Shown here piece by piece: positions 43,879 to 62,328 of a stretch of 64,000 nt of DNA. The position numbers and the translations under genes were made by a program. How positions within the stretch are numbered: the stretch's first letter is position 1; each line of letters starts with the position of its first letter. The stretch is from an uncultured Gemmatimonadota bacterium (GTDB taxonomy: Bacteria > JAAXHH01): the NCBI GenBank assembly GCA_951812955.1, contig OX638340.1:1888001-1952000 (forward strand), in the 5' to 3' direction. The notes under the pieces are model-generated. The model saw nothing but the letters and a program-made list of their open reading frames with translations. It did no database searches and was not told the DNA's origin.

Positions 43879-46443
43879 ATGTTATTTCGCCTGACCGCCC
43901 GAATATCCGGCGGCCTGCTATGTGCTTTTGCCGGTCTCCAATTGAATCATGCCATTGCGTCAGCTCAATCTACAGACGATCAGGCTACGCTGAACAAAGG
44001 CATAGCGGAAACCGTGGCGGCGATATCGGAAGAAACCGAACGGACCTCTGACCCGCGGCCTTTCAGCGTTCCCCTTCCCGTATCCAAAACACTCTTCGAC
44101 TACGGAAATCTAGATTCCGACGACTACATACTTTCGGCCAAGCGGGCTGTTTCGACTATCGAGGTGGACGGACACCTGGATGAAGCCGAATGGCAACAGG
44201 CTGAAGTCGCCGGCGATTTCTTCCAGCTTGAACCCGTCGAAGGCGCCCCGGCAACCTTCCCCACCGAAGTCAGAGTGCTGTACGACGACAATAATCTGTA
44301 CGTGGGATTCGTCTGTTTCGACCCCAATCCGGAGAACATCATGGCCCCGGACATGCAACGGGACACCCGGATGAGTTTCTCCAACGACATGGTTACGGTC
44401 GTTATCGCATCCCTCGACCACTACCGCGAAGCCTTCGAATTCCAGACCAATCCCAACGGCGCCCGGTCCGATTCCTTCGTCAGCGCTGAAGGTAACAACT
44501 CGGACCGTGACTGGAACGGATTGTGGAATGCGGCCAGCCAGGTGTACGATTACGGTTGGTCGGCCGAATACGTGATCCCCTTCCACACGCTGCGGTTTCC
44601 CAAGCGCCAGAACCAGACCTGGGGCATAAACTTCGGACGCCGAATCCAGCGCAGCAGGGAGGAATCCTACTGGGTTCCCCTGAGCCTGAAGGACGGCGAC
44701 CAGGCGCTGTTTCGATTCGGCAAGGGCGGCCGACTGACGGCCCTGTTCGATATCACGCCGGGCGGACGGGTCCAGGCGACCCCGTTTACCGTACTTGGCG
44801 CCCAGTCCTCACGGATTACCGAATCCGCCCCGACACCCGCTCGCCCGATCGCCGCGACGGACCTCGACAATGGTATGCAGCGGAGTTTGGGCGGCGACCT
44901 TAAGGTCAGTGTCACATCGGGTCTTACGTTAAATGCGACCGTCAATCCCGATTTCGCCCAGGTGGAAGCGGACGACGAGGTCGTGAACCTTTCCCGCTTC
45001 GAATTCCAGTTTACCGAAAAGCGCCCCTTCTTCCTGGAGCGCAGCGATATCTTCACCTTGAACCAGCGGCCGCAACGACGCGGACCGCAACGTGGCGGCG
45101 GCGACCTGACGCCCCAGCTGTTCTTCAGCCGGCGCGTCGGACGACAGTTGCCGGACGGTCAGTCCGTCCCCATCGACCTCGGCATGCGCCTGACGGGAAA
45201 AATCGGGCATACGACCATCGGGTTCCTGAACGTTCAAACCCGGGAGACCCAGTACGACGACGACGGGGAACAGAAGATGGAACCGCTGACCAACTGGCAA
45301 GCCCTGCGTGTAATACGGGACTTCGGGTCACGGTCGAGCGTCGGCATGATGGCTACCTTCAAGGAACCGAATCCCCGATTCGATGACCGGGTCGGGATGG
45401 CCATACCCCGTTACGCCGAGACCGACTATAACCGCGTGATGGGATTCGACCTGAACCTGGCCTCGCGGGGGACGAATCACCGGGGGCAGATTACTTTCGC
45501 CAAAAGCTGGACCGATACGCTGAGCACCAGCAACCAGGACTGGACTTTTCGGATTATCGAGCGGTGGCAGAACCGGTGGCTTATGTACGGGATTTCCTAC
45601 CTCGACATCGGCGAGGATTTCATCGCCCAGTCCGGCCTGGTCAGAGACGAAGGCCTGCAGCGGGTAGGGGGCGGCATGACGGCCAATACCTTTCTCCGCC
45701 GGTTTGGCATTCGGCGGATCAACGGGGGGTTCAGGAGCAATTATGTGACCCGCAAGAACACGGGTTTCTCCGATGCCGATTCCTGGTCATTCCAGCCCAA
45801 TGTATTCCTGGAACTGGAACGGGGAATGTGGATCTCCGCGTCATATAACATGAATTTCGATACACTCAGCGAAACGACGCGCATAGCCGGCGTTCATTTC
45901 ACCGAAGGATCCTATTCCTTCAACCAGGGCAGTCTCTTCCTCTTTACCGACAGTGGCCGGAAGATCTCCTATCAAGGCAGCGTCCGGTACGGCAGGTTCT
46001 ACGGCGCCGACCTCCTCAGCCTGTCGAGTGAACTGTCCATCAAGCCGAATCCCCGTTTCGCGCTGGAACCTGGCATTACCCGCAGCCGGGTCGACCGGGG
46101 CAATCGCCTGGGTCTGGAGGACGACGAATACGATCATCGTACGCAACTCATACCCAGTGTCCGAATGAGTTACGCCTTCACGCCGAATCTGTCGTTCTCC
46201 TCCTTCGTCCAGTTGAACGCGGATCGGCAGCGGGAGATCGACGATTACCACATGAATACGGTAACGATGAACCTCCTCCTCGCCTACCGGTCGCCCTTCG
46301 GTCACTCGTTCTTCCTGGCTTTCAACCAGTTCCGCGATGACGACCTCGATACCGACGGTACCTTCGGCGTCTACGAACGAACGCCCCTGCGCCTGAGGGA
46401 CCAGCAGATCGTCGCCAAGGTGTCATACCTGCTGAACCTGTAG
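43879..46443 (+). CDS. DUF5916 / CBM9-like domain outer-membrane protein
   Basis: 854 aa. Sec signal. N-terminal carbohydrate-binding family-9-like block (DGHLDEAEWQQAEVAGDFFQLEP...YVGFVCFD). Beta-rich C-terminus ending with aromatic residues. Confidence 0.65.
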   Translation: MLFRLTARISGGLLCAFAGLQLNHAIASAQSTDDQATLNKGIAETVAAISEETERTSDPRPFSVPLPVSKTLFDYGNLDSDDYILSAKRAVSTIEVDGHLDEAEWQQAEVAGDFFQLEPVEGAPATFPTEVRVLYDDNNLYVGFVCFDPNPENIMAPDMQRDTRMSFSNDMVTVVIASLDHYREAFEFQTNPNGARSDSFVSAEGNNSDRDWNGLWNAASQVYDYGWSAEYVIPFHTLRFPKRQNQTWGINFGRRIQRSREESYWVPLSLKDGDQALFRFGKGGRLTALFDITPGGRVQATPFTVLGAQSSRITESAPTPARPIAATDLDNGMQRSLGGDLKVSVTSGLTLNATVNPDFAQVEADDEVVNLSRFEFQFTEKRPFFLERSDIFTLNQRPQRRGPQRGGGDLTPQLFFSRRVGRQLPDGQSVPIDLGMRLTGKIGHTTIGFLNVQTRETQYDDDGEQKMEPLTNWQALRVIRDFGSRSSVGMMATFKEPNPRFDDRVGMAIPRYAETDYNRVMGFDLNLASRGTNHRGQITFAKSWTDTLSTSNQDWTFRIIERWQNRWLMYGISYLDIGEDFIAQSGLVRDEGLQRVGGGMTANTFLRRFGIRRINGGFRSNYVTRKNTGFSDADSWSFQPNVFLELERGMWISASYNMNFDTLSETTRIAGVHFTEGSYSFNQGSLFLFTDSGRKISYQGSVRYGRFYGADLLSLSSELSIKPNPRFALEPGITRSRVDRGNRLGLEDDEYDHRTQLIPSVRMSYAFTPNLSFSSFVQLNADRQREIDDYHMNTVTMNLLLAYRSPFGHSFFLAFNQFRDDDLDTDGTFGVYERTPLRLRDQQIVAKVSYLLNL

Positions 46444-46629
46444 CCTGTTCGATCCGGGGGGGAACAGGCATTACTCCCGGATTGCTTGCGTTTACAGCCG
46501 GGAACTATACAAGTACCTGTGCGTTAAAATCGGGCAGGGAACCGTATTCTTGCCGTTACATAACGTCTTCCGCACGACGAACAACCGATTAGAGAGAACA
46601 TTTTCTCACTTCAGGTATACCCCGGATAC

Positions 46630-47535
46630 ATGATTATGAACCTGCAAAAATCAATAGCTGTGCCGTTGGCAATGACGATCTGCCTGGTCCTCGTCTCCGT
46701 TACCGAGGTATCGGCCCAGGATCGGAGGACTTCGGGCTGGTATGTTTCCGGTGGACTGGGCGGCAACCTGGTATACGGCCTCGACCAGGCGGGTTCGAAC
46801 ACGGAATCCACGTGCTATCCGACCAGCGCCTGCTTCGATTTGGTTCTACGGGAAATTCCCGGTTACCGGTGGCGTTACGATCCGTCCGTCGACCGGGGTA
46901 TCGGTTTCGAAGCTGCCGTCGGACGGGTGTTCGACCGTACCCGCATCGAGGTCTCATTCGCGCATAGGAGAAACAACGTCGACCAGGGACCGCCGCTTGA
47001 GATAACCTATCTCGATGGCACCACCGCGGGAGTGAGTACCTATCTCGGACAGGGACTGGCGCAGACCATCAGCAGCAGTTTCATTGAGGATCAGGTTACT
47101 CGTTCGGTTTCATTGAACGCCTACTACGATCTGCCCTTCGGTCCGCAAAGAATCACGCCCTACGTGGGGGTGGGGACCGGTGCCGCCTTCGTTGAACTGA
47201 CCAGGATCTTCTTTTCGATAGAATACACCGACCCTTCAGGAGAAGGCACGCACTACGATCCCCCCCTGTCATTCTACAACAGCAAGCAGGATACGAGGTT
47301 ATCCAATACAGTCTTCGCGGGGCACGTGTACGCGGGAGCAGCCTACAGTCTGGGCGACCGTACTGCCATCGACCTGAAGATGGCCTACTCCAGGGTGGAC
47401 GACGTCGAACACACCGGTACCTACGAGTATCATCCTTATTTAGAGACGGACCCTGCCTTCACGAATAAAAACACGTTCAGCGCCATGAACCAGTGGTCCG
47501 TGACGGTGAACGTCCGTTTCCTGTTTGGAAACTGA
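46630..47535 (+). CDS. outer-membrane beta-barrel protein (OmpA/OmpW-like porin family)
   Basis: 301 aa. Sec signal ending VSAQ. Alternating amphipathic beta strands. C-terminal VRFLFGN. Confidence 0.55.
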   Translation: MIMNLQKSIAVPLAMTICLVLVSVTEVSAQDRRTSGWYVSGGLGGNLVYGLDQAGSNTESTCYPTSACFDLVLREIPGYRWRYDPSVDRGIGFEAAVGRVFDRTRIEVSFAHRRNNVDQGPPLEITYLDGTTAGVSTYLGQGLAQTISSSFIEDQVTRSVSLNAYYDLPFGPQRITPYVGVGTGAAFVELTRIFFSIEYTDPSGEGTHYDPPLSFYNSKQDTRLSNTVFAGHVYAGAAYSLGDRTAIDLKMAYSRVDDVEHTGTYEYHPYLETDPAFTNKNTFSAMNQWSVTVNVRFLFGN

Positions 47536-47590
47536 CGCGGGATCGGCAGACAGCGTCAAGATCAACCAAACCGAGCAGTATTCCGCCGAA

Positions 47591-47606
47591 CGAACGCGTA
47601 CGCGTT
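47591..47606. repeat. perfect 16-bp palindrome GAACGCGTACGCGTTC upstream of the arginase-family gene
   Basis: Self-complementary sequence. Overlaps a copy of the ACGCGT-core motif also seen at 13721, 13771 and 48548. Confidence 0.8.
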
Positions 47607-47637
47607 CCACCGACGCTCACTGAACCGAAATAGATAC

Positions 47638-48477
47638 ATGATTCTCGAATCGCTCAAAGCGGCTCTGGAAAAATCGGATCGGCAAAAACTTGCGCTGGTG
47701 GGGATCCCCGACGACGCCAATTCCACTTTCCTCCGTGGCGCGGCCGAAGCGCCTCCGAAGATCCGTGCGCAACTCTTCTCCGATGCCTTCAACATGTGGA
47801 CTGAGACGGGTGTCGATCTCGGCGAGGACGTTTTACTCGACGCGGGCGACCTGGACCTGGGCGAGGTCCCCGATGCCTGGGCCGCGATCCAGCACGCCGT
47901 CGAAGCGGTGCTCGATCATGGGCTCACACCCATCTGCCTCGGCGGTGACCACGCCATAACCTGGCCGATCGTTAAGGGGTTCCGGCGCAAGTACGACACG
48001 CTCAGCATCCTTCACTTCGATGCGCACCCTGATCTCTACGACAATTTCGGGGACAACCCCCGCTCCCATGCGTCTCCCTTCGCTCGGATTATGGAAAACC
48101 ACCTGGCGGACCGGCTCGTCCAGGTGGGTATCCGCACCGCAAATGGCCATCAGCGGAAGCAGGCCAGACGGTTTGGGGTCGAGATGATCGAGATGCGGGA
48201 GTTGACCGGGGATCTAAGTCTGGCATTCGACTCGCCCGTCTATATATCGGTGGACGTCGATGGTCTGGATCCGGCGTACGCGCCAGGCGTCTCTCATCCC
48301 GAGCCCGGCGGCCTTTCCCCGCGGCAGGTGATCGACACGATTCAGCGTTTGGACGGCAGAATCGTCGGGGCGGATATCGTCGAGGTCAATCCGCGGAGGG
48401 ATTTCCACGATCTGACGGCGGTCGTCGCGGCTAAGATCGTGAAGGAAGTCGCCGCAAAGATGCTGGTGCATGCATAG
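47638..48477 (+). CDS. arginase/agmatinase/formiminoglutamase-family ureohydrolase
   Basis: 279 aa. Mn-binding motifs GGDHAIT, HFDAHPD, SVDVDGLDP. Confidence 0.85.
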   Translation: MILESLKAALEKSDRQKLALVGIPDDANSTFLRGAAEAPPKIRAQLFSDAFNMWTETGVDLGEDVLLDAGDLDLGEVPDAWAAIQHAVEAVLDHGLTPICLGGDHAITWPIVKGFRRKYDTLSILHFDAHPDLYDNFGDNPRSHASPFARIMENHLADRLVQVGIRTANGHQRKQARRFGVEMIEMRELTGDLSLAFDSPVYISVDVDGLDPAYAPGVSHPEPGGLSPRQVIDTIQRLDGRIVGADIVEVNPRRDFHDLTAVVAAKIVKEVAAKMLVHA

Positions 48478-48587
48478 TCGTGCATAGTCGTCCGCACCGG
48501 AATCAGGTGATCTGCAGCAACTGCGCGCTATAGTTACGCGAATTCGGAACTTACGCGTACCTTCCACTTTTCGCGGCGAATCGGGCG

Positions 48588-48653
48588 TTCACAAACAAAA
48601 ACACGTCCAGCGCCACGAACCAACCTGTCCGTGACACTGAACGTGCGTTTCTG
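48588..48653 (+). pseudogene. degenerate duplicate of the 3' end of the OMP gene (46630-47535)
   Basis: ~80% nucleotide identity to 47458-47523 (FTNKNTFSAMNQWSVTVNVRF vs FTNKNTSSATNQPVRDTERAF). No upstream ORF. Confidence 0.5.
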
Positions 48654-48720
48654 CAGGTAATTGACACGGGACGGCGTTACCCAGGACGGTTCAATTCAGC
48701 CCGTACGCCTGCCCAGCCCC

Positions 48721-50091
48721 CTATCCCGTCGAATCCACGAAGACGCTGTGCGCGCTGCGGTCCTTGCCCGCGTCCTGCGTGTGCTGGTACGACCGATGCT
48801 CGGAAGGTTTGCCAAGTGAGGTGAGGTCAAGCATCTTCTCCGCGGTTCTCGTCGCCACATAGGGCCGCCGGATGTCGGTCGGATTGGCCTGGATGTGCTG
48901 CTTCCAGGCGCCCAGGTCCGTCTTCGCCTGGATCAGCCCCTTGATCATGCCCATGTCGTTCAGCATGGCCACGTCGTCCGCGGGTCCGAGGATGACTGCT
49001 CCGGTGATCGTGGAGCCGTTCCAGATCAGCTTGCGGTAGACCGGCCGGTTGGCGTTGATCACCTCGGTTACGTCGCCGTCCCCCGACCAGTCGCCGAAGC
49101 TCGCGCATTGGAGCCCGCACACGTCGAGGATATTGATCAGCAGGCTGCCGCCATATTCCACGTCCTGGCCGGCCATGTTGGCCCCGGCGATCCGGCCGTG
49201 ATCGACCGCGGTCGGCTGGATGGCGTGCACTGCCTGCCCGCCCGTGGACAGGTCCGGTCCCTCGGCCACGTCGCCCGCGGCGTACACGTTCGCCGCGCTG
49301 GACTGGCAACGGTTGTTGACCAGGACGCCCTGGTTGGTCTCGATACCCGAGCCTTCGAGAAAGCCGATGTTGGCCCTGATCCCGGTGGCCACGATGACCA
49401 CATCCGCCCGGGTGGACGACCCGTCGGAAAGCTGCAGGGTCTTGACGCCGTCGTGGCCGTGATCGATTCCCTGCACGCTTACGCCGGTGTGGACTTCAAC
49501 GCCCTGCGACTCGAGCCAGGAGTTCACGAGGGACGCGCCCTGGGCGTCCAGCATGCGGGGCAGCACCTGCCCTTCGAGCTCGATCACCTTCAGGCGGGCG
49601 CCGCGTTTGTGCATCGCGTTCAGAATGATGAAACCGATGAACCCGGCCCCGATGAAAGCCACCTCGGCATCGCTACCGAGGGCGCTCACGGTCTTTTCCG
49701 CGTCCGCTACGGTCCAGAGATTGTGGACCCCGTCGCCGTCCGCGCCGGGAATGTTCAACTGCTGGGCGGATGACCCGGTGGCGATCAACAGGTTGTCGAA
49801 AGGTACCATGGAGCCGTCGCTGAGCGAGACCATGTTCGCGTAGGGATTCACCTCGGTGACACTGACCCCGAAGCGGGTCTTCACTCCCAGCCTGCCGAAA
49901 TAGTCGTCGTCTCCGGTATTTACCTGTTCGACCGGGATATTCCCTGAGATGTAGTAAGGCAGGGCCATGCGGGAATAGGCCGGCTCATCGGAGATCAGGG
50001 TAATGGACGCGTCCGCATCGTAACCGCGTATCGTTTCGATAGCGTTCATCCCGCCCGGTCCGCCGCCTATAATCACGTGTTCTGTAGCCAT
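48721..50091 (-). CDS. FAD-dependent pyridine-nucleotide-disulfide-type oxidoreductase (AorC-like NAD(P)-binding subunit)
   Basis: 456 aa. IIGGGPGG FAD motif and FIGAGFIGF NAD motif. Last gene of the ferredoxin-AOR-AOR operon. Confidence 0.8.
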   Translation of the reverse strand: MATEHVIIGGGPGGMNAIETIRGYDADASITLISDEPAYSRMALPYYISGNIPVEQVNTGDDDYFGRLGVKTRFGVSVTEVNPYANMVSLSDGSMVPFDNLLIATGSSAQQLNIPGADGDGVHNLWTVADAEKTVSALGSDAEVAFIGAGFIGFIILNAMHKRGARLKVIELEGQVLPRMLDAQGASLVNSWLESQGVEVHTGVSVQGIDHGHDGVKTLQLSDGSSTRADVVIVATGIRANIGFLEGSGIETNQGVLVNNRCQSSAANVYAAGDVAEGPDLSTGGQAVHAIQPTAVDHGRIAGANMAGQDVEYGGSLLINILDVCGLQCASFGDWSGDGDVTEVINANRPVYRKLIWNGSTITGAVILGPADDVAMLNDMGMIKGLIQAKTDLGAWKQHIQANPTDIRRPYVATRTAEKMLDLTSLGKPSEHRSYQHTQDAGKDRSAHSVFVDSTG

Positions 50092-50154
50092 AATCCGCTC
50101 CTTCAGAGAAAGTACCGAAAATCGAAGTACAGGTCATCCGTGGTTTGGGTTCCG

Positions 50155-51984
50155 TTACGCGAGTCCCAGTTCCATCAGTTTCTCCGTGGTGGGCCGTCCG
50201 TCCGCCGACCAGCCCCTTGCCGCGTAGTAGTCCGGCAGCATGGCGTCGAGATCGACGGTCACCCCCGCGGAAGGACCATCCTTGTGGGCTTCTTCCATCA
50301 ATCGTTTAGGCAGCGTGTCATCGGCCGCGGTGAGGCCCGCCCTGAGATTCCACAGCCGTTCGATATTCCAGATGCGCTCGCCGATGTGCACGAAGTCTTC
50401 CATGGTATAGTCTACGCCGGTGGCTGCGGACAATACGGGGATCAGGTCTTCCAGCGGCGCGCCCGCCGTGGTGAACATGCAGATGCCCGTGGCGTCGTGG
50501 GCCGTGGTCCGGTTTTGTTCCTCGGCCACCCAGACCGACTTGCCCTCGGTGCCGTGGGGATCGTGCTCGCCGGTGGTCTCGATGCCGGGTGTCCAGGCCC
50601 TCAGGTGACAGGCGCCGCGGTTGCAGGTGGCATAGGCCACGCCCATGCCCTGGAATCCCCGTGGATCGTAAGCGGGGAATTCCTGTCCCTTGACGCCCAT
50701 GAAATACTCCGGATGCTCGAATTTCTCGGTCATCCGCTTTGACCCTTCGGCCAGTTCGTCGCCGAAACCCTCCCGGAATCCCGTGGCTTCCGTCATGGCG
50801 ACCAGAGCCTTGCCGTCACCGAACCGGAACGCCATGCCCGTCTGCCCATCGCTCAGCAGGCCCCGCTCATACATTTCCATGGCCGCGGCCAGCGTGGCGC
50901 CCATGGAAATGGGATCCATGCCGAGATCGTTGCACAGGTAGTTCGCCATGACGATGGCGTCCATGTCATCCACGCCGCAGTCGGCCCCGAGCGACCAGAG
51001 GTTCTCGTATTCGGGTCCTTCCCCGGCGACCTTCCAGTTGCGGGGATGCATGTTGACCATGTACTGGTCGGCATTGGGGGAAACCTGGGTCACACGGCCG
51101 CAGGCGATGTTGCAGGCGAAGCATGCCTTGTTGGCGACCAGCCAGTTATCCTTGATGCTCTCCCCGTTGATCGCCTCGGTGCCCTCGAACTGTCCGGCCG
51201 TGAAATTGCGCGTCGGCAGCCCGCCGAAAGCGTTGACGAGGTCGATCGTTGGCGCTGTGCCTAATTCCGTAAGGCCTTGCCGGCCAGGGCTTTCGGCCAG
51301 GTGTTCGTGATAAGGCCAGATGGCGGACATGTAGTCCCGGGGCCGGGCAATCCGGACCCCCTGGTTGCCGCGTACGGCGATCGCCTTGAGGTTCTTGGAC
51401 CCCATGACGGCGCCGACGCCGGAACGGCCCGCGGCACGGTGCTTGTCGTTGACGATGCACGCGAACCGCACCAGGTTCTCGCCCGCCGGTCCGATGCCGG
51501 CCACCCGTAGTTCGGGCATGCCGGTCTCGTCGCGGATGGCGTCCTCGGTTTCCGAGACCACCTTGCCCCACACATTGGAGGCGTCGCGGATCTCGACGCG
51601 GTCATCATCGACAAGGAGGTAGCACGGACGGTCCGACCGGCCTTCCACGATCACCATGTCGTAGCCGGCGAACTTGAGTTCCGGACCCCAGTGGCCGCCT
51701 GAATTGGACGTCGTGATGGCGCCCGTCAGCGGTCCCTTGGTCACCACCATGTACCTGGATCCGCAGGAGGCGTTGGTGCCCGTCAGCGGCCCGGTGGCCA
51801 TGATCAGCTTGTTGTCCGGTCCGAGGGCGTCGACAGAGGGGTCCATCTCCTCGTAGAGGTACCGCGCGGCCAGCCCGCGGCCGCCGATGTATTCCTCGGC
51901 CCAGTCGAGCCTCAGAGGCTCTTTGGTCGCCTTGCCCCGCGAAAGATCCACCCGCAGGATATGGCCGGCCCACCCGTGTGTCAT
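50155..51984 (-). CDS. aldehyde:ferredoxin oxidoreductase family (tungstopterin) enzyme, copy 1
   Basis: Start taken at MTHGWAGHILRVDLS (ORF extends to 52044). AOR N-terminal domain plus cluster-binding C-terminal domains. Confidence 0.9.
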   Translation of the reverse strand: MTHGWAGHILRVDLSRGKATKEPLRLDWAEEYIGGRGLAARYLYEEMDPSVDALGPDNKLIMATGPLTGTNASCGSRYMVVTKGPLTGAITTSNSGGHWGPELKFAGYDMVIVEGRSDRPCYLLVDDDRVEIRDASNVWGKVVSETEDAIRDETGMPELRVAGIGPAGENLVRFACIVNDKHRAAGRSGVGAVMGSKNLKAIAVRGNQGVRIARPRDYMSAIWPYHEHLAESPGRQGLTELGTAPTIDLVNAFGGLPTRNFTAGQFEGTEAINGESIKDNWLVANKACFACNIACGRVTQVSPNADQYMVNMHPRNWKVAGEGPEYENLWSLGADCGVDDMDAIVMANYLCNDLGMDPISMGATLAAAMEMYERGLLSDGQTGMAFRFGDGKALVAMTEATGFREGFGDELAEGSKRMTEKFEHPEYFMGVKGQEFPAYDPRGFQGMGVAYATCNRGACHLRAWTPGIETTGEHDPHGTEGKSVWVAEEQNRTTAHDATGICMFTTAGAPLEDLIPVLSAATGVDYTMEDFVHIGERIWNIERLWNLRAGLTAADDTLPKRLMEEAHKDGPSAGVTVDLDAMLPDYYAARGWSADGRPTTEKLMELGLA

Positions 51985-52070
51985 GAAGAAGGCTCCGTTC
52001 CTCGGCGCTAGCCGGGTGATGCAGGGCCGCGCCCTGTGGATCACCCTTCCGGCTCATGCCGGATGAAGCG

Positions 52071-53918
52071 CTAGGTCAATCCCAGCGACGACAGCTTCTC
52101 CTGGGTGGGTTCGCCTTCCGCGTTCCAACCGCGGAGTTCGTAGTATTCCGGCAGCATCTCGCCGAGCCGGTTTACTTCGCCCTTGGTCGGGCCATCGGGG
52201 ATCGGGTCTTCGAGCAGCCGCTTAGGCAGCGTGTCGTCCTTGCCCGAAAAGCCCGCCCGCTGGTTCCACATGCGTTCGATATTCCAGACGCGTTCTCCGA
52301 CTTCCATCAGTTCGGGTACGGAGTAGGAAATCCCGGTCACCGCCTCGAGCTGGGGCTGTATTTCGTCCAGGCCCACGCCGAAGGTCAGGAACAGGCAGAG
52401 TCCAGACGCGTCCACGGTGCAGGTGGCGTCCTGGAAGATCTTCGTGATCTCTGCTTTACCTTCCGTCACGGCCGGATCCATCTTCTCCGGAATCCCCAGG
52501 ATCTCGGGGGCGACCGTGTAGCTTTTCAAATGGCAGGCGCCTCGGTTCGAGGTCGCGTAACCCAGCCCCATACCCTGGATCGCGCGGGCGTCATAGGCTG
52601 GGAATTCCTGGCCGCGCACGCCCATGAAGTACTCCGGATGATTGAACTTGGCGGTCATGCGCTTCGATCCTTCAGCCAGTTCGTCGCCGAAGCCTTCGCG
52701 ATAGGCCGCCTTCTCCACCATGGCGACCAGCGCTTCGCTGTTACCGAAGTTGAGCGCCATGCCGGTTTGCTCGTCGGTGACTGCGCCGTTTTCGTATAAC
52801 TCCATGGCCGCGGCCAGGGTGGCTCCGAAGGAGATCGGATCCATGCCGAGTACGTTGCAAAGGGCATTGGCCTTGATGAGCGCATCCAGATCGTCGATGC
52901 CGCAATCGGCACCCATGGCCCAGGCGTTCTCGTACTCCGGTCCCTCGACCGCGATCTTCCAGTTGTGCGGCCGCGTGGTCACGGTGAACTTGTCCTGCGC
53001 CTCGCCCGGAAGCTGCGACACCCTCCCGCAGGCTATCGTACAGCCAAAACACGCCTTGTTGGCCACCAGTCGCGTATCGGCAAGGGTCTCCCCGCTGATG
53101 TTGTCCGCGCCTTCGAGCTGGGATACCTGGTGGTTGTTTGTCGGCAGTGCGCCGCTCTCATTGATGATATTGACCAGCACCGCGGTGCCGTATGCGGCCA
53201 GACCCTCACCCGTTACCGGATGCTCGACCAGCTTGCTCTTCATCTCCCACATGGCCGACATGAACTTCTGCGGGTCGGCGATGGGTACGCCCCCGGTACC
53301 GCGTACGGCAATGGCTTTGAGGTTCTTGGAACCCATGACCGCGCCGACGCCGGATCGTCCGGCGGCCCGGTGCCGGTCATTGATGATGGCGGCGAAACGC
53401 ACGAGGTTTTCGCCAGCTGGACCAATACAGGTAACGACCGTGTCGTGCTGTCCCGACTCTTCCCGGACGATGTCGTCCGTCTCCCATACCGTCTTGCCCC
53501 ACAGGTGTTCTGCAGAGCAGATGCGGACGTCGTCATCACAAATGGATATGTAGGACGGAACCGGCGCCCGGCCTTCCACGATCAGCATGTCGTAGCCGGC
53601 AAACTTCAGTTCCGGCCCCCAGTGGCCGCCGGAGTTGGACGTGGTAATGGCGTTCGTCAACGCCCCCTTGGTGATCACCATGTAACGGGAACTCGTCGAT
53701 GCGTTCGTGCCGGTCATGGGACCGGTCGCGAAGATCATCTTGTTGTCCGGGCCCAGCGCTTCCGCCGCCGGGTCCATCTCTTCATAGAGGTACTTGGCCC
53801 CGAGACCGCGCCCGCCAACAAAAGACGTGGCCCAATCCATGTTGAGGGGCTCTTTGGAGATCCGACCGGTGGTCAGATCGACGCGCAGAATCGTGCCTGT
53901 CCATCCGCCGTTGCTCAT
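52071..53918 (-). CDS. aldehyde:ferredoxin oxidoreductase family enzyme, copy 2
   Basis: Start MSNGGWTGTILRVDL overlaps the ferredoxin stop as ATGA. Paralogous to copy 1. Confidence 0.9.
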   Translation of the reverse strand: MSNGGWTGTILRVDLTTGRISKEPLNMDWATSFVGGRGLGAKYLYEEMDPAAEALGPDNKMIFATGPMTGTNASTSSRYMVITKGALTNAITTSNSGGHWGPELKFAGYDMLIVEGRAPVPSYISICDDDVRICSAEHLWGKTVWETDDIVREESGQHDTVVTCIGPAGENLVRFAAIINDRHRAAGRSGVGAVMGSKNLKAIAVRGTGGVPIADPQKFMSAMWEMKSKLVEHPVTGEGLAAYGTAVLVNIINESGALPTNNHQVSQLEGADNISGETLADTRLVANKACFGCTIACGRVSQLPGEAQDKFTVTTRPHNWKIAVEGPEYENAWAMGADCGIDDLDALIKANALCNVLGMDPISFGATLAAAMELYENGAVTDEQTGMALNFGNSEALVAMVEKAAYREGFGDELAEGSKRMTAKFNHPEYFMGVRGQEFPAYDARAIQGMGLGYATSNRGACHLKSYTVAPEILGIPEKMDPAVTEGKAEITKIFQDATCTVDASGLCLFLTFGVGLDEIQPQLEAVTGISYSVPELMEVGERVWNIERMWNQRAGFSGKDDTLPKRLLEDPIPDGPTKGEVNRLGEMLPEYYELRGWNAEGEPTQEKLSSLGLT

Positions 53919-54406
53919 GCCGCGTTCCCTCCCTCGATGGACTGCAGATAGGAAGCATTGACCTTTTCGGCCCAGCCACCCAGCCAGTCGGCCGATTCGC
54001 TCTCGGTGTATTCGATCGCGCCGGTGGGACAGGCGACCGCGCAGGCGGGATTGCCGTCGCACAGATCGCACTTGAAGGCCTTCTGCGTATCCGGATTGTA
54101 GAACACCGTGCCGAAGGGACAGGCAATGGTGCACAACCCGCATCCGACGCAGTTTGCATCGGCCACGACCTTGGCGCCGGTATCCGCGTCGACACTGATG
54201 GCGTTAACGGGGCAGGCCGTCATGCACCAGGCTTCGTCGCACTGAAAACAGGTGTACGGCGCGTAACTGGCCTGCTCATCGAAAATGTTCACGCGAATCA
54301 GCGACCGGGATGGTTGAAACATGCCGGTCTGCACCCAGGAACATGCCAGTTCGCACTGCATGCACCCGGTGCATTTTTCGGGTATAATGCGTAGAGATTT
54401 AGCCAT
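53915..54406 (-). CDS. 4x[4Fe-4S] polyferredoxin (AorA-like electron-transfer subunit)
   Basis: 163 aa with four CxxCxxCxxxCP motifs. Confidence 0.9.
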   Translation of the reverse strand: MAKSLRIIPEKCTGCMQCELACSWVQTGMFQPSRSLIRVNIFDEQASYAPYTCFQCDEAWCMTACPVNAISVDADTGAKVVADANCVGCGLCTIACPFGTVFYNPDTQKAFKCDLCDGNPACAVACPTGAIEYTESESADWLGGWAEKVNASYLQSIEGGNAA

Positions 54407-54665
54407 ACCGACTCCCTTCTGTAACGATGAGCTGGGTTTGGAGGCGTTTCTTTCTGCAGTCCAAAAAACGATAACGAGAGCCTCTTAGACGGGCCTCAAT
54501 TACGGGGTCTTAAGCCCGTCATCACGAGACGACTGCGATGTGATTCTTAAGGTGGTATCCTTAGAGACTACAGGGGTTACCAATCAGTATAATGACCCTG
54601 AAAAGGATTGGCAACAGCAAAACTTGCGACCGTTCGATTTATCCGCGGAGTCCGGCCGGAATCGA

Positions 54666-54986
54666 TCAGGCTCCGGGCAGCCTGTACGGCACGCTCTTGT
54701 TTACCGCGTCGTCGATCGTTTCCGGCGATAAAAGGACCGTGGTGGAGACTTCGAGCGCGCCTGCCGCGGCCACGTTCAGGGCAATCGCGGTCGCGGTCGC
54801 TTCGTCGGGAACCTCGGCGATGAGAATAAGATCGTCGTCGCCCAGGGCGTAGTAGAATCCTTCCAGCGCACCGCCCATCCCCTCGATCGTCTGCGAAAGC
54901 GCCGCACGCCGCCCGGTTCCGCCTTCCTTAAGAAGTCCCTGCAGGCCGGTTTGCGTGTACTTGGTACGGAACATGTACTTCGCCAT
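54666..54986 (-). CDS. GYD-domain protein
   Basis: 106 aa. GGALEGFYYALGDDDLILIAEVPDEATATA matches the GYD family core. Confidence 0.75.
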   Translation of the reverse strand: MAKYMFRTKYTQTGLQGLLKEGGTGRRAALSQTIEGMGGALEGFYYALGDDDLILIAEVPDEATATAIALNVAAAGALEVSTTVLLSPETIDDAVNKSVPYRLPGA

Positions 54987-55301
54987 GGCACCTACCTCCC
55001 ACGGTAGCAGTTATTTGAATCGTGTTGCGCATCCGCCGGACGCGGATAACGGTTTAATTCACAATTGCATGTGCATTTAACAAGGCATGGTCGCGCGCCA
55101 CCTGTCAAGCGGATTTTTGGTCCTGCAGGCAGGCCGAAAACCCTGGATTGCACGGGTTCTGATACGTGGTCGTATTCTGAAGCACTTCCCTTGCGGCAAC
55201 GATGCGTCCCAACCTATATTAAATATACCGGAAACAGTTGATTCCTTGCAAACCCCGGGCAAACAAACAGAATAGACAACTCCCAGACCAGGCCGGCTAC
55301 T

Positions 55302-56123
55302 ATGTCCGCCAAGGATCCCGCCCAGACTTACCGCATGCACGACGCCAATCGCCTTCACTGGGACAAGTCCGCCGGTTACTGGGCTGATATGCGCGAGCGG
55401 GACGGAATGTGGCGCCGCTGTCCGCTGGAACCCGAATTGGGATTCGCGGGCGGCGCCTTCGAGTTGATCGGATCCTTCGCCGGCGACCTGGAAGGAAAGG
55501 AAGTATGCGTCGTCGGCAGCGGGGACAATCATGCCGTCTTCGCCCTGGCGGGCATGAAGGCCCAGGTCACTTCCATCGACATATCGGAAAGGCAACTGGA
55601 AACAGCTTCCGAACGCGCGAAGCACCTGGGCCTGGCGATCGACTTCGTCCAGGCAGACGTGATGGACCTTAAGCCGCTTTGTGACAGGAAGTTCGACCTG
55701 GTCTGCTCGACCAACGGTTTCTTCGTCTGGATCGCGGATCTTCGTGCGGTATTCGAGGAGATCTTTCGCATCCTGAAACCGGGCGGACACTACGTTTTCT
55801 ACGATGTACATCCCTTCCAGAGACCCTGGAAAGACGGGAATCGGACGGTCGAAGTGGACAAACCTTACTGGCAAACCGGACCGTTACTAGACGAAAAAGA
55901 GGGCACCTTCGAATTCAACTGGACGCTCGGCGACCTGCTGAATCCGTTGGCGGATTCGGGATTCGTCCTGGGGCGTATCCTGGAACATCCCGCCGGGAAT
56001 TCGAGCTTCTGGGAAGGATCTTCCTACTTGCCCGGGGAGAAAGACAGCTTGCTCGACTGGAAGGAGAATCCCAGGGCCGCCCTGCCGGTCTGGCTTTCGG
56101 CGGCTCTGCAGCGACCGGGATAG
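55302..56123 (+). CDS. class I SAM-dependent methyltransferase
   Basis: 273 aa. VCVVGSGDNHAVFALAG motif I. Acidic post-I residue. Confidence 0.7.
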   Translation: MSAKDPAQTYRMHDANRLHWDKSAGYWADMRERDGMWRRCPLEPELGFAGGAFELIGSFAGDLEGKEVCVVGSGDNHAVFALAGMKAQVTSIDISERQLETASERAKHLGLAIDFVQADVMDLKPLCDRKFDLVCSTNGFFVWIADLRAVFEEIFRILKPGGHYVFYDVHPFQRPWKDGNRTVEVDKPYWQTGPLLDEKEGTFEFNWTLGDLLNPLADSGFVLGRILEHPAGNSSFWEGSSYLPGEKDSLLDWKENPRAALPVWLSAALQRPG

Positions 56124-56197
56124 CTCCTGGAGGTCCGACCATACAGCATGGCTATTTTAGTTCAGCAATCCTTTGAATCACTATCCCCGGATGGGCC

Positions 56198-56797
56198 ATG
56201 GGCATGAACGGCGTCGCATACTACCGCGGCCTGCCCATTGGCCGCCGGATCCACGTCACCGGAAACAGTTGTTCCGGGAAATCCACCCTGGCGAACCAGT
56301 TGGCGGCCGCGCTCGAGGTCCCCCGGGTAGAGTTGGACGCCCTCAACTGGCAGCCCGGATGGGTCAGCCTGGCTGATACGGAACCGGAGGAACTGGAATG
56401 TCGTATGACGGTAGCCACGCATGGTGAAGCCTGGGTGGTCTCCGGCTCCTACATGGGGTTTTCCCGGAAAGTCTTCTGGCCGCGCGTGGAGACGGTCGTC
56501 TGGCTGGACCTGCCGAGATACCGGCTTATCTGGCGCGTGCTGATTCGGAGTTGGAAACGCTGGCGGTCGAAGGAGTTGCTATGGGGAACGAATTACGAAC
56601 GATTCTGGCCCAACCTCAAGGTATGGAACCGGGAAGACTCGCTGATCTGGTGGATCATTACGCAGCAGCGCAGAAAGCAGCAGCGCATGCATGCCCTGAT
56701 GGGCGATCCGGCCTGGAACCATATCACGTTCATCCGGCTCGGGTCCGCGGCCGAGATCGACGCGTTCGGGAGGGAAGTAGGGCTTTCAAATGACTGA
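56198..56797 (+). CDS. P-loop NTPase (adenylate-kinase/topology-modulation-like kinase fold)
   Basis: 199 aa. Walker A GNSCSGKST. Small NMP-kinase-like size. Confidence 0.55.
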   Translation: MGMNGVAYYRGLPIGRRIHVTGNSCSGKSTLANQLAAALEVPRVELDALNWQPGWVSLADTEPEELECRMTVATHGEAWVVSGSYMGFSRKVFWPRVETVVWLDLPRYRLIWRVLIRSWKRWRSKELLWGTNYERFWPNLKVWNREDSLIWWIITQQRRKQQRMHALMGDPAWNHITFIRLGSAAEIDAFGREVGLSND

Positions 56798-56996
56798 ATG
56801 GGACCCTTCGATCCTTTTCAAACGCCGATTAGATAGTACGGCTCTATCAGCGTACATATCCATCTGCTCCGCGCCTTACCTTTCAAACACATACGCTTGC
56901 CTAATCAGATTCAGATACGAGTAGAACAGAAGACGTATCAGGCTAATTCAAAATTAAACTTTGATTTGGCCTAATTTGATGTTTAACTTGCAGATT

Positions 56997-58181
56997 ATGA
57001 TTAAACGAGACCTTGCCGAGGAGTTGAAAAAGGCGGCACGGCGGTTCCCTTCAATCACGCTTACCGGACCACGGCAAAGTGGGAAGACCACACTGTGTCG
57101 AGCGCTATTTCCCCGTCTGCCCTACGCGACCCTTGAAGCGACGGACGTACGCTCTTTTGCAAGGGATGATCCCCGGGGGTTCCTGGCTCAGTTCGCCGGA
57201 GGCGCGATCATCGACGAGGTACAGCGCGTCCCCGACTTGCTGTCCTATTTGCAGGGCGTTATCGACGAAGAACCGGCGCCCGGCCGTTGGATTCTGACGG
57301 GTTCGCAGAACCTGTCTTTGCTCGAATCGGTCAGCCAATCGCTGGCCGGAAGGACCGCCATATACCATCTGCTTCCCTTGAGCCGATGTGAGATCCTGCG
57401 CTTTGACCGATATCCAGTCAGTCTCGAAGAGACGCTGTTCGCCGGGACGTACCCACGGGTTTTCGATCGCGGACTTGAACCGGCTGACTGGTTCAGGTCC
57501 TATGTCGCCACGTACGTCGAGCGTGACGTGCGCTCCACTAACAACGTAGGGGACCTGACGACGTTCCAACGATTCGTAGAGCTCTGCGCCGGGAGAACGG
57601 CGCAACTTGTCAACTATTCGTCACTGGCCAACGACTGCGGCATATCACAACCGACAGCCAAGGCGTGGCTCAGCATACTCGAGACCAGTTTTCTCGTTTT
57701 CCGCCTGCCGGCATTTCACTCGAATCTGCGAAAGCGACTTGTGAAGATGCCCAAACTGCACTTCTACGATACGGGTCTCGTCTGCTGGCTGCTGGGAATA
57801 CGCACGCCCGATCAACTGCGAAGCCATCCGTTGCGGGGTTCCGTCTTCGAAACCTGGGTTGTCTCGGAAATCACGAAACACAGACTCAACCGCGGCGAAT
57901 CGCCGAGGCTAAGTTTCTATCGCGATCGCAATGGCGTCGAAGTCGATCTCATCATCGAACAACCTTCTCATCGAACACTGGTCGAGGCAAAGTCGGGCGA
58001 AACGGTATCCGCGAATCTGTTCGCCGGAGCGCAGAGGGTCCAGAAACATATCACCCGGCCAACCCGCCCGGATTCCATAGCCGTGGTCTACGGCGGCGAC
58101 CAGTTCCAACATCGAACGCCGGGGTCTCTGGTACCCTGGAGTGGGCTTCACGAAGCGGATTTCTGGAAAACGGGGTCCTGA
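56997..58181 (+). CDS. AAA+ ATPase with C-terminal DUF4143 (PD-(D/E)xK-like) domain
   Basis: Walker A GPRQSGKTTL, Walker B IIDEVQ. C-terminal GVEVDLIIE...VEAK matches the D...ExK nuclease motif. ORF begins at TTG 56961; first ATG is 56997. Confidence 0.8.
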   Translation: MIKRDLAEELKKAARRFPSITLTGPRQSGKTTLCRALFPRLPYATLEATDVRSFARDDPRGFLAQFAGGAIIDEVQRVPDLLSYLQGVIDEEPAPGRWILTGSQNLSLLESVSQSLAGRTAIYHLLPLSRCEILRFDRYPVSLEETLFAGTYPRVFDRGLEPADWFRSYVATYVERDVRSTNNVGDLTTFQRFVELCAGRTAQLVNYSSLANDCGISQPTAKAWLSILETSFLVFRLPAFHSNLRKRLVKMPKLHFYDTGLVCWLLGIRTPDQLRSHPLRGSVFETWVVSEITKHRLNRGESPRLSFYRDRNGVEVDLIIEQPSHRTLVEAKSGETVSANLFAGAQRVQKHITRPTRPDSIAVVYGGDQFQHRTPGSLVPWSGLHEADFWKTGS

Positions 58182-62259: not shown

Positions 62260-62328
62260 GGGGTACCTCCTCGTTCAGAAGGAAGCTTAACTCACTGTCC
62301 CGGACAAGGGTGCAGTACACAGAACACG

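What the first reader, a model, noticed from the sequence alone, without database searches (positions are those of the whole stretch)
47458..48653. Arginase/agmatinase-family gene bracketed by a duplicated OMP 3' coding fragment, a perfect 16-bp palindrome and ACGCGT-core motifs
The last ~66 bp of the OMP gene (47458-47523) reappear at 48588-48653 at ~80% identity, with no ORF context. The intervening 1.05 kb carries the perfect palindrome GAACGCGTACGCGTTC (47591-47606), the ureohydrolase gene, and the motif GGAACTTACGCGTACCTTCCAC (48546-48567). This looks like a gene-cassette insertion or segmental rearrangement that left a target or duplicate scar. The ureohydrolase could be agmatinase or guanidino-acid hydrolase, or a HutG-type formiminoglutamase, but it is ~34 kb from the hut operon.
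Basis: seen in the sequence. Interest (0 to 1): 0.5.

Follow-up and report, generated by a model that had tools for sequence, protein, structure and literature searches.

The report
Inserted ureohydrolase gene; duplicated hairpin retained
A single agmatinase-type gene was inserted between two converging genes in a group of sponge- and coral-associated bacteria, and the copied tail of the neighbouring outer-membrane-protein gene survives beside it, apparently because it carries a transcription-stop hairpin for the opposing operon.

Summary
Window 47415-47547 (last 121 nt of the OMP gene, stop codon, 9 nt after it) recurs at 48545-48675, with local score 86 against 17.9±2.3 for shuffles.

Among related MAGs, 12 species have OMP and the convergent FAD-oxidoreductase (FADox) gene 22-158 nt apart. 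Twelve distinct loci, including the window, carry the ureohydrolase between them. All share the same junction after its stop codon. The gene is therefore an accessory insertion. Its synonymous-site similarity shows later exchange between lineages.

The downstream copy is a frameshifted pseudo-fragment but not a dead scar. On the minus strand it folds as RNA into 20 uninterrupted pairs followed by UUUUUGUUUGU, 75 nt past the FADox stop. It is more conserved than four-fold sites. In insertion-free genomes the same hairpin lies antisense inside the last ~22 OMP codons.

After duplication the FADox-side copy kept the hairpin and lost the reading frame. The OMP-side copy kept the frame and its hairpin eroded.

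The 16-bp palindrome and ACGCGT motifs are at chance level and poorly conserved. No mobility genes or known cassette sites were found. Termination is inferred, not shown. Moderate-to-low interest.

The parts
46630..47535 (+). Outer-membrane beta-barrel protein gene (301 aa)
   Evidence: PF13505 OMP_b-brl E = 1e-9. Orthologues at 68-93% identity lie in the same DUF5916-OMP-[AGM]-FADox-AOR-AOR synteny in more than 20 MAG species.
47415..47547 (+). Repeat copy A: the last 121 nt of the OMP coding sequence, the stop codon and 9 nt after it. This copy is still coding.
   Evidence: Local alignment to 48545-48675, score 86 against shuffles 17.9±2.3.
47470..47515 (-). Eroded version of the antisense hairpin inside the OMP 3' coding sequence
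   Evidence: 18/21 pairs, but the longest uninterrupted run is only 7. The 91-nt minus-strand segment folds at -30.8 kcal/mol, z = -2.0, and the 80-nt segment at -29.3 kcal/mol.
47536..47637 (+). OMP-ureohydrolase spacer. The ~55 nt before the ATG are conserved among filled loci and may hold the gene's own promoter and leader.
   Evidence: Alignment of 9 filled loci. No Rfam family matches.
47592..47607 (.). Perfect 16-bp palindrome GAACGCGTACGCGTTC. Lineage-specific and at chance level.
   Evidence: Unique in the window. The window has 3 such palindromes against 1.5±1.2 expected. It is perfect only in the window and L007; L008 has one mismatch; other species have ..CCGYGTACGCTTTYKCGCGTGCC.. 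at that place.
47638..48477 (+). Ureohydrolase gene (279 aa), agmatinase / plant-type arginase clade. This is the inserted accessory gene.
   Evidence: PF00491 E = 3e-69. TIGR01230 agmatinase 191.4 bits, above the 174.3 cut-off. The best solved relatives are plant arginases 6vsu/6vss, E = 5e-67. The GGDH, DAHPD and SVDVDGLDP motifs are present. The gene is absent from 12 syntenic genomes.
48478..48544 (.). Spacer between the ureohydrolase stop and the remnant. Most of it is absent from the closest relatives L007 and L008. It includes a 10-nt tandem repeat GCATAGTCGT x2 (48472-48491) that overlaps the stop codon.
   Evidence: Alignments. No similarity to the OMP region above shuffles: score 18 against 17.6.
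48545..48675 (+). Repeat copy A': a frameshifted, non-coding remnant of the OMP 3' end
   Evidence: Orthologous remnants with shared derived states (..CCACCTGTCCG.., GACACTG) occur in L007, L008, L009, L010, L011 (two copies), L013 and L053.
48601..48646 (-). Hairpin of 20 uninterrupted pairs (5 of them G·U) with a 6-nt loop, as minus-strand RNA
   Evidence: Terminator scan: 20 pairs, the longest stem reported in the ~60 kb scanned. MFE -42.2 kcal/mol, z = -4.1, 0 of 200 shuffles as stable. The plus strand folds at -23.4, z = -0.2. 20/21 pairs on the minus strand against 15/21 on the plus.
48591..48600 (-). U-rich tract (UUUUGUUUGU) immediately 3' of the hairpin on the minus strand
   Evidence: The tract is kept in all 8 remnants but interrupted (UCUU, UUC) in several OMP-side copies of filled genomes.
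48721..50091 (-). FAD/NAD(P) pyridine-nucleotide-disulphide oxidoreductase gene (456 aa), convergent with OMP and the ureohydrolase. It is the last gene of a minus-strand Fer4-AOR-AOR-FADox cluster.
   Evidence: PF07992 E = 3e-49. Synteny. Its stop codon lies 75 nt upstream, in its own direction of transcription, of the hairpin.
50155..52044 (-). Aldehyde:ferredoxin oxidoreductase gene, upstream of FADox on the same strand
   Evidence: PF02730 and PF01314, E = 2e-85 and 8e-140.

Best explanation
In the ancestral ('empty') arrangement, the OMP gene and the FADox-AOR gene cluster converge with only 22-158 nt between their stop codons. A long hairpin plus U-tract lies antisense inside the last ~22 codons of the OMP gene. 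It is readable only in the FADox direction. I infer that it ends or stabilises the 3' end of the FADox transcript.

A single ureohydrolase gene (agmatinase / plant-type arginase clade) with its own ~55-nt upstream leader was then inserted once. That event duplicated ~131 bp: the OMP 3' end plus 9 nt after the stop codon. The duplication gave each neighbour its own copy.
- The OMP-side copy kept the reading frame, and its hairpin and U-tract have since eroded.
- The FADox-side copy lost the frame (indels) but kept a perfect hairpin and U-tract.

The insert later moved between related species, was lost again, and in one lineage (L011) was doubled. Ordinary homologous recombination through the flanking genes and the repeat can account for all of this without a dedicated mobility enzyme.

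Shown: the repeat, the presence/absence polymorphism, the shared junction, the lateral exchange, and the conservation and strand asymmetry of the hairpin.

Inferred: terminator activity, the order of events, and the mechanism that produced the first duplication. The first duplication could come from single-crossover integration of a circle carrying gene plus OMP tail, or from an out-of-register double crossover.
For: 1. Empty and filled sites. Twelve MAG species have no gene between OMP and FADox. Twelve distinct loci, including the window, have the ureohydrolase there.

2. Single origin. All filled loci share the junction TAG|GYGYCCRC after the ureohydrolase stop and a conserved ~55 nt before its ATG. 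The remnants share derived states that OMP copies lack.

3. Lateral exchange. Four-fold-site identity of the ureohydrolase between clade X and L023/L031 is 0.74-0.81. The flanking FADox, OMP and DUF5916 genes give 0.49-0.65. The empty L024 nests beside the filled L031. Unit 2 in L011 carries an L010-type spacer.

4. Hairpin form. 20 uninterrupted pairs plus UUUUUGUUUGU on the minus strand, z = -4.1, against z = -0.2 on the plus strand. The G·U pairs become A·C mismatches on the other strand: 19.5 pairs against 15.2 on average in the remnants.

5. The same hairpin sits inside the OMP coding sequence of empty genomes, z = -4.9 to -6.6. It is absent from the non-convergent paralogue L046 (z = -0.4 to -0.7) and from 18 distant homologues with similar C-terminal peptides (z = -2.6 to +2.2).

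6. Division of labour. The mean longest uninterrupted stem is 19.0 in remnants, 16.5 in OMP ends of empty genomes and 11.1 in OMP ends of filled genomes (7 in the window).

7. Constraint. The remnant core is 85-90% identical between lineages whose four-fold sites are 70-76% identical, and the sequence around it is unalignable.

8. It is not a dispersed repeat. A covariance model finds only the OMP-linked copies in 348 kb.
Against: - No transcript data exist, so termination is inferred from form alone.
- There is no compensatory (two-sided) covariation in the stem: 0 pairs changed on both sides. Only one-sided wobble changes occur.
- Terminator-like sites are not enriched in this genome overall (11 vs 14.7, 20 vs 15.1 and 21 vs 17.3 expected). 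A 20-bp stem is also longer than typical intrinsic terminators. The organism may therefore not rely on such signals.
- The remnant is dispensable. It is gone in L056 (a ~30-nt gap) and replaced by an unrelated GC-rich hairpin in L023, L031 and L057.
- The OMP-side hairpin is not eroded in L010 and L011.
- The three classes compared are not phylogenetically independent.
- The trees are single-gene NJ trees at a recombining locus. The FADox and DUF5916 trees disagree, so insertion versus loss cannot be polarised rigorously.
- Excess synonymous conservation at the OMP 3' end in general is modest: 0.74 against 0.53-0.69 elsewhere.
Confidence: 0.62

Rival explanations
1. The second copy is a neutral scar. 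It would be a decaying pseudo-fragment left by the insertion with no function, and its similarity to the OMP tail would reflect only a recent origin.
For: It is frameshifted and untranslatable. Its 5' part has decayed to ~60% identity and has been trimmed differently in different lineages. It has been lost completely in L056 and replaced in L023, L031 and L057. There is no two-sided covariation.
Against: The 60-nt core is 85-90% identical between lineages whose four-fold sites are 70-76% identical, while the adjacent intergenic sequence is unalignable. The remnants keep an uninterrupted 19-20-bp stem and the U-tract better than the still-coding copies do. Their derived transitions (C to U, A to G) mostly preserve pairing as G·U on the minus strand.
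Confidence: 0.17
2. The remnant is what is left of a second, tandem OMP paralogue. The ancestor would have been OMP1-OMP2-FADox, and the ureohydrolase replaced most of OMP2. L011 shows a parallel, where a DUF998 gene replaced the interior of a second ureohydrolase copy.
For: L011 shows that gene interiors at this site can be replaced, leaving 5' and 3' stubs. A paralogous OMP exists elsewhere in these genomes (P0060/L046).
Against: None of the 12 empty and 12 filled loci has two OMP genes in tandem. No OMP 5' or upstream remnant is detectable in the OMP-ureohydrolase spacer or in 48478-48544. The remnant also repeats the 9 nt after the stop codon and is closer to the orthologue than to the paralogue, which is 74% identical.
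Confidence: 0.08
3. The hairpin acts at the DNA level or as another kind of RNA signal. It could be a recombination or cruciform hotspot that attracts insertions, a protein-binding palindrome, an RNase III or mRNA-stability element, or the basis of antisense control between the OMP and FADox transcripts. In this reading it is not a terminator.
For: The site has taken up at least two different genes, the ureohydrolase and DUF998 in L011, and shows repeated gain, loss and duplication. The stem is unusually long for a terminator, and the genome shows no general enrichment of terminator-like sites. Long inverted repeats are known to provoke breaks and rearrangements (general knowledge, not tested here).
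Against: The strong strand asymmetry is not expected for a DNA cruciform or a symmetric protein site. G·U pairs work only in minus-strand RNA: 19.5 against 15.2 pairs, and -40 against about -17 to -31 kcal/mol in the remnants. The DUF998 insertion in L011 lies inside the pseudo-ureohydrolase, not at the hairpin. The U-tract directly after the stem is conserved in all remnants. An RNA-stability or processing role remains compatible with the data and overlaps with the main explanation.
Confidence: 0.13

Closest known systems
Intrinsic (Rho-independent) terminators between or inside convergent genes, including bidirectional terminators
   Same: A stem-loop is followed directly by a U-rich tract, downstream of the last gene of a co-oriented cluster and in the gap or overlap zone of a convergent gene pair.
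   Different: The stem is 20-21 bp, longer than usual. It contains 4-5 G·U pairs, so it is effectively one-directional. In empty genomes it lies wholly inside the coding sequence of the opposing gene. No termination has been measured.
Campbell-type (single-crossover) integration, and merodiploid formation by out-of-register pairing of repeats during transformation (for example Streptococcus pneumoniae, PMC3784515, listed)
   Same: The insert is flanked by direct repeats of a ~131-bp stretch of host sequence. A tandem doubling of the unit occurs in L011, with a second unit of foreign allele type.
   Different: No circular intermediate, plasmid or transformation system has been observed here. 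The mechanism is inferred only from the end product.
Integrative elements that target the 3' end of a gene and carry a replacement 3' end (attL/attR duplications at tRNA or protein genes)
   Same: The 3' end of a gene is duplicated on both sides of the inserted DNA, and the gene stays intact.
   Different: There is no integrase or any other mobility gene within ±6 kb. The insert is a single 1.1-kb metabolic gene. The repeats are 131 bp and diverged, not short identical att cores.
Integron gene cassettes with attC hairpin sites
   Same: A single promoter-proximal gene is followed by an imperfect palindromic element, and L011 shows an array-like gene-hairpin-gene-hairpin pattern.
   Different: The palindrome is a fragment of the neighbouring OMP gene. 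The core words are GTTCAGC...GCTGAAC, the reverse order of the attC consensus RYYYAAC...GTTRRRY recalled from knowledge. No IntI gene is nearby. The second L011 unit contains pseudo-ureohydrolase stubs and a reversed gene.
Agmatinase SpeB / plant-type arginase (ureohydrolase superfamily)
   Same: The protein passes the TIGR01230 cut-off. The Mn-binding motifs are intact. Its closest solved structures are plant arginases.
   Different: The substrate has not been tested. The next-closest homologues (65-79% identity) lie in unrelated contexts next to a 174-175-aa ORF with no Pfam hit (two of them were scanned).

Membership tests
Intrinsic (Rho-independent) terminator | Stable stem-loop in the nascent RNA | tested here: met
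   Minus-strand RNA forms 20 uninterrupted pairs, -42.2 kcal/mol, z = -4.1. Remnants in 7 other loci fold at -36 to -45 kcal/mol.
Intrinsic (Rho-independent) terminator | U-rich tract immediately 3' of the stem | tested here: met
   UUUUGUUUGU directly after the stem. Six to seven of the first 8 bases are U in all 8 remnants.
Intrinsic (Rho-independent) terminator | Position downstream of the stop codon of a co-oriented gene or operon | tested here: met
   The hairpin starts 75 nt after the FADox stop on the minus strand in the window. In empty genomes it lies roughly 60-140 nt after that stop, inside the antisense OMP tail.
Intrinsic (Rho-independent) terminator | Measured transcript release or 3' ends at the U-tract | not testable with these tools
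   No transcript data were available.
Intrinsic (Rho-independent) terminator | Structure supported by compensatory substitutions | tested here: inconclusive
   No stem pair changed on both sides. Seven pairs vary on one side only (wobble-compatible), and 91.8% of cells are paired against 32-44% when the partner is slid by 1-3 columns.
Integron gene cassette (attC) | IntI-type tyrosine recombinase and attI next to the array | tested here: not met
   Genes within ±6 kb in five contexts are DUF4097, PALP, DUF5916, OMP, Arginase, Pyr_redox_2, AFOR x2 and Fer4. No integrase is present.
Integron gene cassette (attC) | attC with RYYYAAC ... GTTRRRY core sites (consensus recalled from knowledge) | tested here: not met
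   The conserved arms read GTTCAGC ... GCTGAAC, which is the opposite order and not the consensus. The element is homologous to the OMP coding sequence.
Transposon or insertion sequence | Transposase gene, terminal inverted repeats and a short target-site duplication | tested here: not met
   The insert holds one metabolic gene. The flanking duplication is ~131 bp. No terminal inverted repeats were reported.
Site-specific integrative element with att duplication of a gene 3' end | Integrase encoded on the element, and short identical att cores | tested here: not met
   No integrase is present. The repeats are 131 bp at ~75-82% identity.
Agmatinase (NCBIfam TIGR01230 equivalog) | Score above the curated cut-off | tested here: met
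   191.4 bits against 174.3. hutG (141.8 vs 229) and rocF arginase (77.7 vs 227.6) fail their cut-offs.
Agmatinase (NCBIfam TIGR01230 equivalog) | Binuclear-Mn ligand motifs of ureohydrolases (GGDH, DAHxD, SxDxDxxDP) | tested here: met
   LGGDHAITWP, FDAHPDLYD and SVDVDGLDPAYAP are present in the translation. The motif definitions come from general knowledge of the family.
Agmatinase (NCBIfam TIGR01230 equivalog) | Substrate is agmatine rather than arginine or a guanidino acid | not testable with these tools
   The closest solved structures are plant arginases (6vsu, 6vss, 229 bits). Guanidinobutyrase and other agmatinases score 95-131 bits.

The most novel reading that the evidence does not exclude
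A transcription terminator that had evolved antisense inside the last 22 codons of a convergent gene was freed from that double constraint by a 131-bp duplication made during a gene insertion. One copy specialised as coding sequence and the other as terminator. The duplicated hairpin then served as a portable homology handle. Through it, a single promoter-equipped metabolic gene could be gained, lost, doubled and swapped between symbiont species without any mobility gene.
Probability: 0.3. Interest if true: 0.55.

Novelty: new variant of a known kind. Interest (0 to 1): 0.36.

Why it matters
The finding gives a clean, datable natural example of two things that are usually discussed separately.

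First, regulatory signals of one gene can be written into the coding sequence of its convergent neighbour. A partial duplication can then resolve that overlap into two specialised copies.

Second, in uncultured sponge and coral symbionts, single accessory metabolic genes appear to move between species using only flanking homology. Here the gene is a urea-releasing agmatinase/arginase-type enzyme, relevant to nitrogen exchange in the holobiont.

For annotation, it is a reminder that a gene fragment with no ORF context can be a functional RNA signal rather than junk.

It does not open a long-standing question, and each component belongs to a known kind.

Tried and rejected
- Exact-sequence look-ups of the window's OMP and ureohydrolase found nothing on record.
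- The palindrome and ACGCGT motifs as recombination or operator sites were rejected. They are at chance frequency, the palindrome is unique in the window, and it is not conserved across filled loci.
- The idea that the ureohydrolase came from beside the paralogous OMP was rejected. That paralogue (P0060/L046) sits between a MarR gene and a solute-binding-protein gene, with no ureohydrolase.
- Donor context: homologues at 65-79% identity (L049-L052) share only the coding sequence, with no shared flanks, no OMP fragment and no hairpin. No donor was identified.
- Known RNA family: no Rfam match at E ≤ 1 in 46300-48900.
- Dispersed repeat or REP-like element: the fuzzy word search and covariance model R1 found only OMP-linked copies in the window plus 26 loci, 348 kb in total.
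- A hairpin forced by the amino-acid sequence was rejected. Distant homologues with similar C-terminal peptides, and the paralogue, show no significant fold.
- Compositional foreignness of the ureohydrolase: GC is 0.61 and GC3 0.74, within the range of its neighbours, so this is uninformative. The L011 DUF998 gene is lower, at 0.51.
- Covariation support for the stem: none was found.
- The window-specific stretch 48478-48544 as further OMP remnant: no similarity above shuffles.
- The JGI metagenome scan added only 4 usable loci.
Full report
**1. What is in the window**

The region reads, left to right:
- a DUF5916/CBM9 protein gene (43879-46443, +)
- a 301-aa outer-membrane beta-barrel protein gene (OMP, 46630-47535, +)
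- a 279-aa Arginase-family gene (47638-48477, +)
- on the opposite strand, a 456-aa pyridine-nucleotide-disulphide oxidoreductase gene (FADox, 48721-50091) preceded by an aldehyde:ferredoxin oxidoreductase gene (50155-52044).

The ureohydrolase passes the NCBIfam agmatinase equivalog cut-off: TIGR01230, 191.4 bits against 174.3. It fails the cut-offs for formimidoylglutamase and arginase. It keeps the GGDH, DAHPD and SVDVDGLDP metal-ligand motifs. Its closest solved relatives are plant arginases 6vsu/6vss, E = 5e-67. I call it an agmatinase / plant-type arginase clade ureohydrolase with untested substrate.

**2. The observation**

The homology is longer than reported. Positions 47415-47547 match 48545-48675 with a local score of 86, against 17.9±2.3 (max 28) for shuffles. 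The ungapped, in-register upstream part has 27/43 matches, P = 4e-7. The repeat includes the OMP stop codon and 9 further bases (TGACGCGGGA).

The second copy translates as the OMP tail in one frame and then continues in a shifted frame. It is a frameshifted pseudo-fragment. Core words of the repeat occur nowhere else in the 64 kb.

The palindrome is at 47592-47607. It is one of three perfect 16-bp palindromes in the window, against 1.5±1.2 expected. ACGCGT occurs 19 times against 23±5 expected. The motif at 48546-48567 is the decayed 5' part of the OMP fragment, aligned with codons GTYEYHP.

**3. Relatives: an empty site exists**

OMP homologues at 68-93% identity come from MAGs labelled Gemmatimonadetes or Latescibacterota. 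Isolate names point to sponges and corals. All keep the synteny DUF5916-OMP-...-FADox-AOR-AOR.

In 12 species (L012, L014-L022, L024, L025) the OMP stop and the FADox stop are only 22-158 nt apart, with nothing between them. In 12 distinct loci (the window, L007, L008, L009, L010, L011, L013, L023, L031, L053, L056, L057) the ureohydrolase lies between them.

The OMP 3' fragment recurs after the ureohydrolase in the window, L007, L008, L009, L010, L011, L013 and L053. All filled loci share two things: the same junction after the ureohydrolase stop (TAG|GYGYCCRC) and a conserved ~55 nt before its start codon. The remnants also share derived states absent from functional OMP ends. This points to a single original insertion-plus-duplication.

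The remnant reaches back to about -121 in the window and in L053, which share the derived string TCCACNTNTCGCGGCGA. It has been trimmed to about -98/-93 in L008 and L007 and to about -76 in the L009 group. It is gone in L056, and an unrelated GC-rich hairpin sits in its place in L023, L031 and L057.

**4. The insert has moved between lineages**

At four-fold degenerate sites, the ureohydrolase of the window group and the L009 group is 0.74-0.81 identical to that of L023/L031. The flanking FADox, OMP and DUF5916 genes of the same genome pairs are only 0.49-0.65 identical.

The empty L024 groups next to the filled L031 in the FADox and DUF5916 trees. In the OMP tree, L023 and L031 pair together. 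Their OMP and ureohydrolase genes are 0.96-0.97 identical at four-fold sites, against 0.85-0.87 for FADox and DUF5916.

L011 carries three copies of the OMP fragment. Between the second and third copies lie a 5' stub and a 3' stub of a second ureohydrolase gene. These stubs flank a reversed, lower-GC DUF998 gene. The spacer of this second unit is of the L010 type, not the L011 type.

Gain, loss, doubling and replacement have therefore all happened at this site. No integrase, transposase or other mobility gene lies within ±6 kb in any context examined. Homologous recombination through the flanking genes and the repeat is sufficient to explain the spread, and out-of-register pairing would produce the L011 doubling. 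This is inference. A comparable process is described for pneumococcal merodiploids (PMC3784515, listed).

How the first 131-bp duplication arose cannot be decided. It could be single-crossover integration of a circle carrying the gene plus the OMP tail, or some other route. Homologues of the ureohydrolase at 65-79% identity lie in unrelated contexts and share only the coding sequence, so no donor is identified.

**5. The remnant is a conserved, strand-specific hairpin**

The terminator scan reports, on the minus strand at 48646 to 48601, a stem of 20 pairs with a 6-nt loop followed by TTTTGTTTGT. This is by far the longest stem found in the ~60 kb of the window that was scanned.

As RNA, the minus strand of 48585-48675 folds at -42.2 kcal/mol (z = -4.1, 0 of 200 shuffles as stable). 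The plus strand reaches only -23.4 (z = -0.2). The asymmetry arises because 4-5 of the pairs are G·U, which become A·C mismatches on the other strand. Remnants average 19.5 of 21 pairs on the minus strand and 15.2 on the plus strand. The hairpin begins 75 nt downstream of the FADox stop, in the FADox direction of transcription.

In empty genomes the same hairpin and U-tract lie antisense inside the last ~22 codons of OMP. The U-tract is the complement of the codons for N-K-N. The fold there gives z = -4.9 to -6.6.

The amino-acid sequence does not force this fold. The paralogous OMP, which is followed by a co-oriented gene, keeps only an outer 11-bp stem, has no U-tract, and gives minus-strand z = -0.4 to -0.7. 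Eighteen distant homologues with similar C-terminal peptides give z = -2.6 to +2.2. A covariance model of the element finds no further copies in 348 kb of held sequence. No Rfam family matches.

**6. Division of labour after duplication**

The mean longest uninterrupted stem is 19.0 pairs in the remnants, 16.5 in the OMP ends of empty genomes and 11.1 in the OMP ends of filled genomes. It is 7 in the window and in L008. The U-tract is intact in every remnant but is interrupted (UCUU, UUC) in several OMP-side copies.

Between lineages whose four-fold sites are 70-76% identical, the 60-nt remnant core is 85-90% identical. The sequence immediately around it cannot be aligned. The FADox-side copy is therefore kept by selection as a structure after it lost its reading frame. 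The OMP-side copy is kept as coding sequence while its structure relaxes.

**7. Caveats**

- There are no transcript data, so termination is inferred from form alone.
- No stem pair shows a two-sided compensatory change. Variation is one-sided and wobble-compatible.
- Terminator-like sites are not enriched in this genome in general, and a 20-bp stem is long for an intrinsic terminator. An RNA-stability or processing role is an alternative with the same anatomy.
- The remnant has been lost or replaced in four loci, so it is not indispensable.
- L010 and L011 have not relaxed the OMP-side hairpin.
- The class comparison is not corrected for shared ancestry.
- The single-gene NJ trees disagree with each other, so the polarity of individual gains and losses is uncertain.

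**8. Comparison with what is known**

The element works like an intrinsic terminator of a convergent gene pair. It meets the form and position criteria, but measured release is untested.

The insertion resembles Campbell-type integration, or the 3'-end duplications left by integrative elements. It fails the membership tests for integron cassettes, transposons and integrase-borne elements: no recombinase, no consensus core sites, and a 131-bp diverged repeat.

Each component is of a known kind. What is less commonly documented is the combination: a terminator embedded antisense in a coding sequence, duplicated by a gene insertion, with the two functions then separated.

**9. Verdict**

- The palindrome and ACGCGT motifs are incidental.
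- The 'scar' is most likely a retained transcription-end signal for the opposing FADox-AOR cluster.
- Interest is moderate-to-low (0.36). Novelty: a new variant of a known kind.

Noticed in passing
L011:4188-5205: The same hotspot holds a nested second unit. It consists of a second and a third copy of the OMP-tail hairpin, a 5' stub (4334-4387) and a 3' stub (5056-5106) of a second ureohydrolase copy, and between the stubs a reversed 209-aa DUF998 membrane-protein gene with lower GC (0.51 against 0.58-0.64).
   Followed up: partly
window 48472-48491 and 48478-48565: A 10-nt tandem repeat, GCATAGTCGT x2, overlaps the ureohydrolase stop codon. It sits at the start of a ~80-nt stretch that is absent from the closest relatives L007 and L008. 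Part of the adjoining remnant 5' extension is shared with the more distant L053.
   Followed up: partly
L023 and L031, OMP plus ureohydrolase segment: At four-fold sites, OMP and the ureohydrolase are 0.96-0.97 identical between these two species, but the flanking FADox and DUF5916 genes are only 0.85-0.87. This suggests a recent recombinational transfer of just this segment.
   Followed up: partly
L046:5463-8084: A paralogous OMP (55% identity, no Pfam hit on record) sits between a MarR-family regulator gene and a solute-binding-protein gene (SBP_bac_1/8). Its 3' end keeps only the outer 11-bp inverted repeat of the hairpin.
   Followed up: partly
L049:5001-6490, L051:5001-6463, L052:5001-6373: Ureohydrolase homologues at 65-79% identity in other lineages are each adjacent to a 174-175-aa ORF. 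Two of these ORFs were scanned and have no Pfam hit. In L052 the ORF overlaps the ureohydrolase stop, and in L051 a DDE transposase gene lies next to the pair.
   Followed up: no
window 1-40000 and 44001-64000: Consensus intrinsic-terminator-like sites are not more frequent than in shuffled sequence anywhere in the window (11 vs 14.7, 20 vs 15.1 and 21 vs 17.3). The OMP-remnant hairpin is an isolated outlier.
   Followed up: no
window 48721-52044 and L006:6918-12626: FADox is the last gene of a minus-strand cluster Fer4 - AOR - AOR - FADox. Its best NCBIfam match is the epsilon subunit of phenylglyoxylate dehydrogenase (PadH, 265 bits, below the 475 cut-off). This hints at an aromatic or aldehyde oxidation module.
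   Followed up: no
L010:5904-5935: The motif that ends the repeat, TGACGCGGGA(T/C)C, is itself duplicated in tandem immediately after the OMP stop in L010. This may be a footprint of recombination at the repeat boundary.
   Followed up: no
window 3197-3228: The second-longest 'terminator-like' stem in the window (14 pairs) looks like a short tandem repeat, GACGGTCGTTTTCTTCGA x2, rather than a true hairpin terminator.
   Followed up: no
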